Origin: Patescibacteria group bacterium
Lineage (GTDB): Bacteria > Acidobacteriota > Polarisedimenticolia > JACPZX01 > DASXTC01
DNA length: 37,879 bases
Direction: 5' to 3'
Assembly: GCA_035646975.1 (NCBI GenBank)
Contig: DASROJ010000210.1
Location: 1 to 37,879 of the forward strand
The first letter of the stretch is position 1; the number at the start of each line of letters is the position of its first letter. The position numbers and the translations under genes are program-made. Below, piece after piece: positions 19,518 to 21,584 of this stretch. The notes below the pieces were generated by a model that saw nothing but the letters and a program-made list of their open reading frames with translations, did no database searches and was not told the DNA's origin.

Positions 19518-21584
19518 TCAGGACACGTACATGTAGAAACAGATCAACACGAAAAGGCCGAAGACCATGGCCGATGCGTACGACTGGAGCAGGCCCGTCT
19601 GCAGCTTTCGCAGGCCCCCGGAGCCGGCTCTCACCGTGCGTCCGGCCAGATTCACCAGGCCGTCGACGACCCATGTGTCCCAGAACACCGAGAGATAGGA
19701 AAAGCCGACGGTCAGGTTGCGCACCAGGTGCACCGCGCCGTCCACGACGCTCACGTCGAACCAGTGCGCCGCGCGGCTGAGGCGGTAGAAATTCTGGATG
19801 ACGAGCGCATCGTAGATCTCGTCGACCCAGTACTTGTTCTTCAGGACGTTGTAGACCCCGGCGAATCGCTTCTTGAAGGCGGCCGCCTTTTCGGGCGTCT
19901 TGTCATAGAGGTTGAAGCCGAACCACATCGTCAGCACCGCAAGCAGCGACATCAGAAGCATGAGGCCGTATTCCGCGGCGCTGCCGGCTTCCTCTGCATG
20001 GCCGGCCAGCTCGGCGGCATCGCCACCCATTGCGCCACCCGTGGTGCCACCAAGTGCGGCGTAGGTAGCCGGATTGAACACCGGCTCCAGCCAGGCTTCG
20101 AGCGTGAAGGGCATGTGCCACAGCGACGCCGGCACGCTGAGAAAGCCCCCCACCAGGGCCAGACCGGCCAGGATCACCAGCGGCCATTTCATCGCGGGGC
20201 CGACCTCGTGAACGTGCTGCTCTGTGTGATGATCCATGCGCGACTTGCCCCAGAACGTCAGCCCCATGAGGCGTGTCATGTAGAACGCCGTCAGGACCGC
20301 GGTGATTGCGCCGACGGCCCAGATGACCGGGCTCCACTGGAACGCTTTCCAGAGGATCTCATCCTTGCTGAAGAAACCGGAGGTCAGCGGCACGCCGGCG
20401 ATGGCGACCCACCCGCACAGGAAGACCTTGTAGGTCGTGGGCAGCTGCTTGCGCAGCCCGCCCATCTTCATCATGTCCTGCTCGTGGTGCAGCGCATGGA
20501 TGACCGCGCCCGAACCGAGAAACAGCAGGGCCTTGAAGAAGGCGTGCGTCGTGAGATGGAAGATCGCTCCCGAGAAAGCCCCGACACCGGCGGCCAGGAA
20601 CATGTAGCCCAGCTGGGAGACGGTGGAGTAGGCCAGGACCTTCTTGATGTCGTCCTGCGCCAGGCCGATGGTCGCGGCGAACAGCGCGGTGGCCGCCCCC
20701 ACGCAGGCCATCACCGTGAGCGCCGCGGGAGCCGCGAGATAGAGCGGCGCGAGACGGCAGACCATGTAGACGCCCGCGGTCACCATGGTGGCCGCATGGA
20801 TGAGGGCCGAGACAGGCGTGGGGCCGGCCATGGCGTCGGGCAGCCAGACGTAAAGAGGGATCTGAGCGGACTTGCCGCAGGCGCCGCCGAACAGGCAGAG
20901 CGCGACCACGGTGAGGACCCACTGCGGTCCCTGCCCCGTCGTCACCGCGTGCAGGATCGGCCTGAACTCGAGCGTGCCGAAATATGAAAACAGCGTCAGC
21001 GTCCCGATCACGAACGCCAGGTCTCCGATGCGGTTGGTGATGAACGCCTTGCGGCCGGCGTCGGCGCAGTCGGGCTTCCAGTAGAAATAGCCGATCAGCA
21101 GGTAGGAGCAAAGCCCCACCCCTTCCCAGCCGACGAACATCACGGCGAACGATCCACCCAGCACCAGCGTCAGCATCATCGCCATGAAAAGATTGAGATA
21201 GGTGAAGTAGCGCCAGTAGCCCGGCTCTTCCCACATGTAGCCGACGGAGTAGATGTGTATCAGCAGGCCGACACCCGTGACGATCAGGATCATCACGGCG
21301 GACAGCGGGTCGAGCGTGAAGAGCCAGTCCACGGCCAGCCCCTTGGCGCCGCCGCCGGCGTCCACCGGTGGCACCCAGGTGGCCAGCCTGTTCTCCATGT
21401 AGCGCTGTCCCGCGGGCATGCCGGCCAGCTCGATGACGGCGAGACCCGACAGCACGAAGGCCACCGCCACCACCCCGCAGGCGATGAACGACACGGCCTT
21501 CTTCGGCATGCGGCTGCCGAGCAGCCCGTTGATCAGGAACCCGATCACGGGCAGGATGGGTATCAGCCAGAGAGATCCGCTCAC
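19518..21584 (-). CDS. nuoL: NADH-quinone oxidoreductase subunit L (with extended lateral helix)
   Basis: LDPLSAVM, GWEGVGLCSYLLIG, GKSAQIPLYVWLPDAMAGPTPVSALIHAATMV, DIKKVLAYSTVSQLGY, LQTG near the C-terminus. Confidence 0.96.
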   Translation of the reverse strand: MSGSLWLIPILPVIGFLINGLLGSRMPKKAVSFIACGVVAVAFVLSGLAVIELAGMPAGQRYMENRLATWVPPVDAGGGAKGLAVDWLFTLDPLSAVMILIVTGVGLLIHIYSVGYMWEEPGYWRYFTYLNLFMAMMLTLVLGGSFAVMFVGWEGVGLCSYLLIGYFYWKPDCADAGRKAFITNRIGDLAFVIGTLTLFSYFGTLEFRPILHAVTTGQGPQWVLTVVALCLFGGACGKSAQIPLYVWLPDAMAGPTPVSALIHAATMVTAGVYMVCRLAPLYLAAPAALTVMACVGAATALFAATIGLAQDDIKKVLAYSTVSQLGYMFLAAGVGAFSGAIFHLTTHAFFKALLFLGSGAVIHALHHEQDMMKMGGLRKQLPTTYKVFLCGWVAIAGVPLTSGFFSKDEILWKAFQWSPVIWAVGAITAVLTAFYMTRLMGLTFWGKSRMDHHTEQHVHEVGPAMKWPLVILAGLALVGGFLSVPASLWHMPFTLEAWLEPVFNPATYAALGGTTGGAMGGDAAELAGHAEEAGSAAEYGLMLLMSLLAVLTMWFGFNLYDKTPEKAAAFKKRFAGVYNVLKNKYWVDEIYDALVIQNFYRLSRAAHWFDVSVVDGAVHLVRNLTVGFSYLSVFWDTWVVDGLVNLAGRTVRAGSGGLRKLQTGLLQSYASAMVFGLFVLICFYMYVS

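What the first reader, a model, noticed from the sequence alone, without database searches (positions are those of the whole stretch)
19650..19763. NuoL lateral helix has a 26-residue duplication (2M-complex signature) but the operon has one nuoM
Seen: WFDVSVVDGAVHL and FWDTWVVDGLVNL lie exactly 78 nt (26 codons) apart and are similar at DNA level (GTCGTGGACGGCGCGGTG vs GTCGTCGACGGCCTGGTG). From the WVD motif to LQTG is 77 residues, against about 50 in standard NuoL/Nqo12 as I recall it. Established: complex I homologues with an extra NuoM have a lateral helix lengthened by about 26 residues to span a fourth antiporter subunit. The operon here has only L, M and N. Inference: either a second nuoM or Mrp-like subunit is supplied in trans (as nuoB must be), or the single nuoM is incorporated twice, or another membrane protein fills the slot, or the extension is a relic of a lost M. 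Any of the first three would be an undescribed complex I architecture with extra pumping capacity.
Basis: partly seen in the sequence, partly recalled or inferred. Interest (0 to 1): 0.8.

Follow-up and report, generated by a model that had tools for sequence, protein, structure and literature searches.

The report
Lengthened NuoL clamp helix, one nuoM
The long strap helix of respiratory complex I subunit NuoL carries one extra 26-residue docking module, as in four-pump "2M" enzymes. This is the normal state of a large family of complex I operons that lack the NADH module and have one nuoM, and nobody has yet shown what lies under the extra length.

Summary
NuoL (19518-21584, minus strand, 688 aa) has two tandem 26-residue modules, WFDxxVVDGxV (residues 608-633) and FWDxxVVDGxVN (634-659). 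The distance from WVDEIY to LQTG is 75 residues, against 49 in this genome's second NuoL and 46 in E. coli, a net gain of 26. The duplication is old (8/26 aa and 36/78 nt identical), not a recent DNA event.

The same two-module helix occurs in true L-M-M-N operons of Nitrospira, Deltaproteobacteria and Anaerolineae. It also occurs in about four times as many L-M-N operons from at least ten phyla, and every one of those I could read upstream lacks nuoEFG.

No second nuoM or orphan MrpD is supplied in trans. This MAG, relatives that are 95-100% complete, and closed genomes of other carriers have none.

Instead, this operon's nuoM is the only one in the genome. The second, NADH-type cluster (A-C-D-E-F-G-H-J-K-L-N) has no nuoM, and two relatives deleted this whole operon but kept nuoM. 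So nuoM is probably shared by both complexes.

The relic idea fails, because both modules are strongly conserved. I cannot decide between NuoM sitting twice (L-M-M-N) and the extra module having another role. This locus is an ordinary member of a family already noted in print and still unexplained.

The parts
19518..21584 (-). nuoL, 688 aa, with a lengthened two-module lateral helix
   Evidence: Pfam Proton_antipo_N and Proton_antipo_M. NCBIfam NF005141 NuoL, 693.5 bits against a cutoff of 556. phmmer match to 4he8_L, E=3e-128.
19764..19829 (-). First helix module, residues 586-607 (WVDEIYD...). It corresponds to D542/D546 of E. coli NuoL.
   Evidence: Alignments. The E. coli numbering was counted from L009.
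19686..19763 (-). 26-residue module copy 1, residues 608-633 (WFDVSVVDGAVHLVRNLTVGFSYLSV)
   Evidence: It aligns to Nqo12 residues 556-563. D610, D615 and V618 are invariant in 37 homologues.
19608..19685 (-). 26-residue module copy 2, residues 634-659 (FWDTWVVDGLVNLAGRTVRAGSGGLR)
   Evidence: It aligns to the same Nqo12 residues 556-563. D636, D641 and V644 are invariant.
19524..19607 (-). LQTG...Y anchor motif and C-terminal transmembrane helix 16, residues 660-687
   Evidence: AF2 helix 665-687. Q662, G664 and Y669 are invariant. The same motif is present in standard, long one-M and long two-M NuoLs.
17938..19506 (-). nuoM, 522 aa, the only nuoM in the assembled genome
   Evidence: TIGR01972, 617.9 bits. 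One match in the whole genome. Orthologous to the orphan nuoM of G017 and G023.
16433..17941 (-). nuoN. The ORF is open up to 18205, and the true start is probably near the nuoM stop codon.
   Evidence: TIGR01770, 440.5 bits, matching from ORF residue 103.
21592..26059 (-). nuoA (25706-26059), nuoC (25100-25699), nuoD (23973-25172), nuoH (22909-23976), nuoI (22413-22898), nuoJ (21891-22397), nuoK (21592-21894). There is no nuoB and no nuoEFG.
   Evidence: Pfam and NCBIfam. No room is left between nuoA and nuoC for another gene.
26259..27035 (-). SLT-domain transglycosylase, the upstream synteny marker of the operon
   Evidence: Pfam PF01464. It sits in the same position in L010, L011 and G017.
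12993..15796 (-). ATP synthase a subunit (14948-15796), b subunit (14170-14673) and a 3-dehydroquinate-synthase-like gene (12993-14144), the downstream synteny markers
   Evidence: Pfam. The order is the same in L010, L011, G017 and G023.

Best explanation
Shown: this nuoL belongs to a large, old family of complex I operons that lack the NADH module (no nuoEFG). In that family the lateral clamp helix holds two tandem 26-residue docking modules (F/W-D-x-x-V-V-D-G-x-V-N) where solved complex I structures have one. The operon has a single nuoM. No extra antiporter-like subunit is encoded elsewhere for it. This nuoM is the only one in the genome.

Inferred: this nuoM also serves the second, NADH-type complex I, whose cluster on contig C316 runs L-N with no M.

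Inferred mechanism: each module docks on one antiporter-like subunit, and the C-terminal anchor helix still docks on NuoN. The extra 26 residues, about 39 A of helix (1.5 A per residue), therefore span one more antiporter-sized position. I think that position is most likely filled by a second copy of the same NuoM, giving L-M-M-N and a fifth proton per two electrons. That would be affordable if the missing NADH module means a lower-potential donor such as ferredoxin. On this view the two-nuoM operons of Nitrospira, Deltaproteobacteria and Anaerolineae are later gene duplications that split a doubly used NuoM into two genes.
For: 1. The module is the same as in true L-M-M-N operons, with the same 75-residue spacing.
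2. Both modules keep invariant D, VDG and V residues, and they lie exactly 26 residues apart in 14 diverse sequences. That suggests the same kind of partner for each.
3. The QTG...Y anchor motif and helix 16 are the same in standard, long one-M and long two-M NuoLs. The anchor site is therefore probably unchanged, and the extra length has to span something.
4. Two-M operons arose at least three times among long-helix lineages. In Anaerolineae the two M genes are recent tandem duplicates.
5. None of about 45 long-helix single-M clusters that could be read upstream has nuoE, F or G. In this genome the standard helix goes with the EFG cluster and the long helix with the EFG-less one.
6. NuoM here must work with two different L/N pairs. 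The second cluster, A-C-D-E-F-G-H-J-K-L-N, has no M. Relatives G017 and G023, both 100% complete, deleted this operon but kept nuoM between the SLT gene and the atp genes.
7. AF2 predicts a continuous helix through module 1 rather than a hairpin.
Against: There is no stoichiometric or structural evidence, and I know of no complex I in which one gene product fills two different positions.

Module number and pump-gene number are not coupled at the gene level: about 43 one-M operons against 10-11 two-M operons share the same helix length. P0038 has three modules, though its 3.3-kb contig does not show its pump genes.

On the NuoL tree, long and standard states sit next to each other in several lineages, with at least 6 changes forced. 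So modules may be gained and lost without much functional cost, or gene conversion between paralogues blurs the tree.

AF2 confidence for module 2 is below 50.

The link from missing nuoEFG to a low-potential donor rests on general knowledge and was not tested here.
Confidence: 0.4

Rival explanations
1. The complex is an ordinary three-pump L-M-N enzyme. The extra module is a tolerated or differently used length of strap. It may lie on the membrane surface as a detour, stiffen the arm, or contact lipid or a neighbouring complex. It adds no pump. Two-M operons used a strap that already had spare length.
For: Long-helix one-M operons outnumber two-M operons about four to one. Closed genomes of carriers hold no spare antiporter-like gene. 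Module number varies, with three modules in P0038. On the NuoL tree, long and standard states sit next to each other in several lineages. AF2 has low confidence for residues 635-667.
Against: A surplus or detour segment should drift in length and sequence. Instead the 26-residue spacing and the D/VDG/V residues of both modules are invariant or nearly so across at least ten phyla. This reading gives no reason for the exclusive link with EFG-less clusters. The conserved anchor motif argues against a moved anchor.
Confidence: 0.35
2. The fourth position is filled by a different protein encoded elsewhere. Candidates are the NuoN of the second cluster (N2), an Mrp or Hyf antiporter-like subunit, or an unrelated membrane protein.
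For: This genome has N2 and L2 on C316 and HyfB/HyfF-like genes on C73, C275 and C208. nuoB and a second nuoI are already supplied from another locus, so assembly from scattered genes does happen here.
Against: Two other carriers reached through loci L071 and L107 (G033, G034) have only LMN plus one MrpA/MrpD pair. Two closed genomes (G031, G032) have just two complete LMN sets. So no common extra partner exists across the family. No conserved extra membrane gene follows nuoN; the next genes are atp genes. The Hyf-like genes sit in their own hydrogenase-type clusters.
Confidence: 0.1
3. The extension is a decaying relic of an ancestor that had two nuoM genes and lost one.
For: The helix is homologous to that of two-M operons.
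Against: Both modules are under strong constraint across phyla. Two-M operons form at least three separate groups on both trees. The Anaerolineae M pair is a recent duplication, not an ancient pair. M proteins of single-M clusters form one large clade, with no sign of alternative loss of M1 or M2.
Confidence: 0.05

Closest known systems
2M complex I of Nitrospira and others (Chadwick, Hemp, Fischer and Orphan 2018, ISME J 12:2668). The paper is not held, so I read it through citing papers PMC6606698, PMC9040806 and PMC7419157.
   Same: The 26-residue insertion lies at the same place in the NuoL lateral helix, with the same 75-residue WVDEIY-to-LQTG spacing. The Deltaproteobacteria-type two-M NuoLs have the same two FDxxV(I)DGxVN modules.
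   Different: The defining second nuoM is absent from the operon and from the genome. The operon also lacks nuoB, which the Nitrospira cassettes have. No nuoG-like gene is present.
Complex_I_1 and Complex_I_2 of Ca. Manganitrophaceae (Yu, Chadwick, Lingappa and Leadbetter 2022, mBio, PMC9040806)
   Same: NuoL carries the lateral-helix insertion although the gene cluster encodes only the canonical pumping subunits. [quoted passage not shown]
   Different: The phylum differs (Acidobacteriota, class Ca. Polarisedimenticolia by source names). Here the single nuoM is also the only one for a second complex I, and nuoB and nuoI are at a separate locus.
Canonical complex I with solved structures (T. 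thermophilus Nqo12, 4HE8/4HEA; E. coli NuoL, 3RKO/7Z7S)
   Same: The antiporter core, the lateral helix and the C-terminal anchor helix are the same, with 3e-128 to 4he8_L. The conserved helix aspartates correspond to E. coli D542, D546 and D563 (counted from L009).
   Different: The solved enzymes have one FD/VDG module (spacing 46-51) and an NADH module encoded by nuoEFG. None of the best 60 solved-structure matches listed, where I could read the alignment, shows the two-module helix.

Membership tests
NuoL (NADH-quinone oxidoreductase subunit L) | Proton_antipo_N plus Proton_antipo_M core, with an equivalog-level HMM score | tested here: met
   PF00662 and PF00361. NF005141, 693.5 bits against a cutoff of 556; TIGR01974, 681.9 bits against 407.5.
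NuoL (NADH-quinone oxidoreductase subunit L) | C-terminal amphipathic lateral helix followed by one anchor transmembrane helix, in a nuoK-L-M-N context | tested here: met
   AF2 helices 564-663 and 665-687. Gene order K-L-M-N.
2M complex I (Chadwick et al. 2018) | Insertion of about 26 residues in the NuoL lateral helix | tested here: met
   Spacing is 75 against 49 in the paralogue, and equals that of L-M-M-N operons.
2M complex I (Chadwick et al. 2018) | A second nuoM in the gene cassette | tested here: not met
   The operon is A-C-D-H-I-J-K-L-M-N. The same order is found in relatives L010 and L011.
2M complex I (Chadwick et al. 2018) | A second nuoM anywhere in the genome | tested here: not met
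   One TIGR01972 match in this MAG, which is 80.6% complete. Relatives 95-100% complete also have one (G002, G004, G014, G023, G030).
2M complex I (Chadwick et al. 2018) | Four antiporter-like subunits in the assembled enzyme | not testable with these tools
   This needs subunit stoichiometry or a structure. No multimer prediction was available.
Long-helix, single-nuoM, EFG-less complex I clusters (mismatch noted in PMC9040806) | Two-module lateral helix with one nuoM and one nuoN after nuoL | tested here: met
   The same layout is found in about 43 loci from at least ten phyla.
Long-helix, single-nuoM, EFG-less complex I clusters (mismatch noted in PMC9040806) | No nuoE, nuoF or nuoG in the cluster | tested here: met
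   Window operon. None of about 45 single-M long-helix clusters readable upstream has E, F or G.

The most novel reading that the evidence does not exclude
The lateral helix acts as a ruler that sets how many NuoM copies are built in. This enzyme would then be L-M-M-N made from a single nuoM gene, a five-proton complex I running on a low-potential donor. The same NuoM would also sit once in the NADH-type complex encoded on another contig. One gene product would occupy three positions in two complexes.
Probability: 0.35. Interest if true: 0.85.

Novelty: new member of a known kind. Interest (0 to 1): 0.45.

Why it matters
The accepted reading is that a longer NuoL strap means an extra pump gene. 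That rule fails in most operons that carry the longer strap. If these common enzymes of Acidobacteriota, Chlorobiales, Bacteroidota, Verrucomicrobiota and others really hold four pump positions, their H+/e- ratio and the energy budgets derived from genomes would need correcting. It would also be the first complex I with one subunit gene used twice. If they do not, helix length cannot be used to infer pump number, including for published 2M predictions.

This lineage adds a natural experiment. It has one nuoM for two complex I gene sets, and nuoM alone survives when the rest of the operon is deleted. That makes NuoM sharing testable.

Tried and rejected
- The primary paper (Chadwick 2018) is not held under its DOI or its PMC id. 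Its content was taken only from citing papers.
- A recent DNA-level duplication is rejected: only 36/78 nt are identical.
- An orphan nuoM or mrpD in this genome is rejected. The extra PF00361 hits on C73, C275 and C208 are HyfB/HyfF-type subunits, by their C-terminal motifs and their neighbours (HyfC/NuoH-like, HyfE-like and a NiFe large-subunit-like gene). The hits on C316 are NuoL2 and NuoN2.
- MAG incompleteness as the reason for the single nuoM is rejected, because relatives 95-100% complete show the same count.
- A relic of a lost M is rejected on conservation.
- A helix that reaches past NuoN to NuoK/J/A with a moved anchor is disfavoured, because the anchor motif is the same in all three classes.
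- The AF2 monomer gave secondary structure but no coordinates, so I could not measure the reach of the helix.
- Multimer prediction of L-M-N against L-M-M-N is not possible with the tool, which takes single chains of the window only.
- Both trees were made with FastTree only, and the helix columns were not removed. The number of long/standard switches may be inflated by gene conversion between NuoL paralogues.
- Literature searches found no structure or stoichiometry for a long-helix single-M enzyme.

Full report
**What is at the site**

The window carries a minus-strand nuo operon. Its genes are:
- nuoA 25706-26059
- nuoC 25100-25699
- nuoD 23973-25172
- nuoH 22909-23976
- nuoI 22413-22898
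- nuoJ 21891-22397
- nuoK 21592-21894
- nuoL 19518-21584
- nuoM 17938-19506
- nuoN 16433 to about 17941

These assignments come from Pfam and NCBIfam. There is no nuoB and no nuoE, F or G. An SLT-domain gene lies upstream, and ATP synthase a and b subunit genes plus a dehydroquinate-synthase-like gene lie downstream. Source names of close homologues place the organism in the acidobacterial class Ca. Polarisedimenticolia. The assembly is a MAG of 3.23 Mb in 402 contigs, 80.6% complete.

**Checking the observation**

NuoL has 688 residues.
- WFDVSVVDG begins at residue 608 (window 19763) and FWDTWVVDG at residue 634 (window 19685), exactly 26 codons apart.
- The two 26-residue units share 8/26 residues and 36/78 nucleotides.
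- Offset 26 is the best self-match among offsets 10 to 44. Only 6 of 1000 shuffles reach its score.
- Against solved structures, residues 556-563 of T. thermophilus Nqo12 align once to query 609-616 and again to query 635-642. That is direct evidence of a net duplication.
- The start-to-start distance from WVDEIY to LQTG is 75 residues here. It is 49 in this genome's second NuoL, 49-51 in other standard NuoLs and 46 in E. coli. The net gain is 26.
- AlphaFold2, run with a 37-sequence alignment (pLDDT 82.5), predicts one continuous helix over 585-640, running through the first module. Residues 635-667 have confidence below 50, and the anchor helix is 665-687.

**How common it is**

A search with the C-terminal part of NuoL found about 35 homologues with the same 75-residue spacing and both modules. 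In an alignment of 14 diverse ones, both modules keep an invariant D, V-D-G and V exactly 26 residues apart.

I then scanned one genome per species with that alignment. It returned 80 loci from Acidobacteriota, Verrucomicrobiota, Nitrospirota, Deltaproteobacteria and Thermodesulfobacteriota, Chlorobiales, Bacteroidota, Ignavibacteria, Armatimonadota, Binatia, Omnitrophica, Aquificota, Chloroflexota and Bacillota. I classified the genes after nuoL by BLAST against L, M and N references:
- About 43 long-helix loci are L-M-N.
- Ten or eleven are L-M-M-N: Nitrospira and Nitrospiraceae, three deltaproteobacterial loci and one Anaerolineae locus.

Both groups have the 75-77 spacing. The deltaproteobacterial two-M NuoLs have plainly the same two modules.

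Reading the upstream genes gives a second pattern. Every single-M long-helix cluster that can be followed, about 45 of them, is ABCDHIJKLMN, ACDHIJKLMN or ACDHJKLMN, with no nuoE, F or G. The two-M clusters are DEFGHIJKLMMN, FGHIJKLMMN or ABCDGIJKLMMN. One locus, L113, does have E and F, but its nuoL is fragmentary and its helix could not be read.

**Is a fourth pump supplied in trans?**

In this MAG the PF00361 family has eight matches:
- L, M and N of the window.
- An L and an N on contig C316.
- Three hydrogenase-4-type subunits, HyfB/HyfF-like by their C-terminal motifs and neighbours, on C73, C275 and C208.

tblastn with NuoM finds no second nuoM. Among 30 relatives, most have exactly one nuoM, including genomes 95-100% complete. 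Two closed genomes that carry a long-helix L-M-N hold just two complete LMN sets. A Vicinamibacterales genome and a Chlorobiales genome hold one LMN plus an MrpA/MrpD pair. So no common extra partner exists, and the idea of a second nuoM in trans is not supported.

**What is special in this lineage**

Contig C316 carries a second cluster, nuoA-C-D-E-F-G-H-J-K-L-N, verified by Pfam and NCBIfam.
- Its NuoL has the standard helix (spacing 49).
- Its nuoL is followed directly by a true nuoN.
- It has no nuoB, nuoI or nuoM.

Contig C164 carries nuoB, nuoI, nuoB and a MidA/NDUFAF7-type methyltransferase gene. The genome therefore encodes two of every membrane and Q-module subunit except NuoM.

The same pair of layouts, L(long)-M-N plus L(standard)-N, recurs in relatives G002, G004, G012, G014, G018 and G030.

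Two relatives that are 100% complete, G017 and G023, have no long-helix nuoL. At the syntenic place they keep only nuoM: between the SLT gene and the atp genes in G017, and directly before the atp genes in G023. That nuoM is orthologous to the window's. Both genomes keep the L(standard)-N pair.

The simplest reading is that this operon's nuoM also serves the NADH-type complex. This is an inference from gene content and synteny.

**Trees**

On a FastTree NuoL tree, two-M operons form at least three separate groups. Long and standard NuoLs of the same lineage often sit together. The window's NuoL is sister, with 99% support, to the standard NuoL2 of its own family, and the two are 59% identical. 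At least six changes of helix state are forced. Gene conversion between paralogues could produce the same picture, because the NuoM tree does not show such lineage-wise pairing.

On the NuoM tree, the Anaerolineae M1 and M2 are recent tandem duplicates. The Nitrospira M2 lies far from its M1. All M proteins of single-M long-helix clusters form one large clade.

P0038 has three modules, two of them nearly identical, so the module array can still expand.

**What it most likely does**

The first two points below are shown; the third step is inferred.
- The extra module is a conserved copy of the unit that contains the residue equivalent to E. coli D563. I placed the residues equivalent to D542, D546 and D563 by counting the E. 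coli sequence.
- The QTG...Y anchor motif is unchanged in standard, long one-M and long two-M proteins.
- If the anchor still docks on NuoN, 26 more helical residues, about 39 A at 1.5 A per residue, must span something the size of an antiporter-like subunit, or else make a detour.

I favour two copies of NuoM (L-M-M-N) at about 40%, for four reasons:
- Both modules are under the same constraint.
- Gene duplication of M has followed repeatedly in this background.
- The long helix goes only with EFG-less clusters, where a lower-potential donor could pay for a fifth proton. That step rests on general knowledge and was not tested.
- NuoM here must already fit two different L/N pairs.

A three-pump enzyme with a surplus or differently used module is nearly as likely (about 35%). 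One-M operons are the large majority, module number varies, and there is no precedent for one subunit in two positions. A foreign occupant (about 10%) and a relic (about 5%) fit the data poorly.

**Comparison with what is known**

The site passes the first defining feature of 2M complex I, the 26-residue insertion. It fails the second, a second nuoM, so it should not be filed as a 2M complex.

The mismatch is already in print. Yu, Chadwick and co-workers noted the insertion in NuoL of Manganitrophaceae Complex_I_1 and Complex_I_2, which have only canonical pump genes, and left it open (PMC9040806). Earlier notes of this scan report the same thing in other genomes. I re-derived the distribution independently.

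I found no paper with a structure or stoichiometry for such an enzyme.

**Verdict**

The locus is an ordinary member of a widespread and unexplained family. The lineage-specific sharing of a single nuoM between two complex I gene sets is the more unusual result.

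Noticed in passing
G000 contig C316 (locus L143) 6526-17260, plus strand: A second complex I cluster, nuoA-C-D-E-F-G-H-J-K-L-N, has a standard-length NuoL helix and lacks nuoB, nuoI and nuoM. nuoL is followed directly by a true nuoN, then by a PTS EIIA-2 gene. The same L-N adjacency recurs in relatives G002, G004, G012, G014, G017, G018, G023 and G030.
   Followed up: yes
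G017 contig C22 (locus L138) 3352-7834; G023 contig C23 (locus L137) 4605-8765: Two relatives that are 100% complete have only nuoM left at the place where this window has the whole nuoA-N operon. In G017 it sits between the SLT gene and the ATP synthase genes; in G023 it sits directly before the ATP synthase genes. The operon was deleted around nuoM, which argues that nuoM is needed by the other complex I.
   Followed up: yes
G000 contig C164 (locus L144) 3945-6753, minus strand: A separate nuoB-nuoI-nuoB trio is followed by a PF02636 methyltransferase. As far as I recall, this is the MidA/NDUFAF7 family that methylates the NuoD homologue in mitochondria. The two adjacent nuoB copies recur in same-family relatives G002 and G004, while other families of the class keep a nuoB near or inside the long-helix operon's contig.
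   Followed up: partly
G000 contigs C73 (180-2348), C275 (270-3857) and C208 (1174-4071): There are three fragments of hydrogenase-4 or formate-hydrogenlyase-like membrane modules: HyfB-like subunits with a C-terminal WDCGY or WGCGG motif, HyfC/NuoH-like and HyfE-like genes, HyfF-like subunits, and a NuoCD/NiFe large-subunit-like gene. They account for all the remaining antiporter-like genes of the MAG.
   Followed up: partly
Protein P0038 (JGI metagenome, 3.3-kb contig): This NuoL has three 26-residue modules, two of them nearly identical (FDIHVIDGLVNLAGKFTERGSWVSGL and FDIHVIDGIVNGLGRVTSAVGQELRY). This is a recent further tandem duplication of the same unit.
   Followed up: no
Loci L049, L051, L055, L056, L068, L071, L072, L085, L089, L091, L093, L044: Many acidobacterial and verrucomicrobial long-helix clusters are A-C-D-H-J-K-L-M-N and lack both nuoB and nuoI, so encoding these two Fe-S subunits elsewhere is common in this family. 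Several contigs (L044, L067, L070, L072, L085, L091, L105) have a second, convergent N-M-L set a few kb downstream.
   Followed up: no
window 12993-16430 and loci L010, L011, L044: In Acidobacteriota the long-helix nuo operon is directly followed by ATP synthase membrane-sector genes (atpZ/atpI-like, then the a, c and b subunits). This conserved adjacency of the two proton machines has no known meaning that I am aware of.
   Followed up: no
window 19518-21584 against C316 13860-15794: The long-helix and standard-helix NuoL paralogues of this genome are each other's closest relatives (59% identity, sister with 99% support). The same holds in Thermoanaerobaculia and Aquificota, but the NuoM tree shows no such pairing. 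This could be gene conversion between nuoL paralogues or repeated gain and loss of the module.
   Followed up: partly
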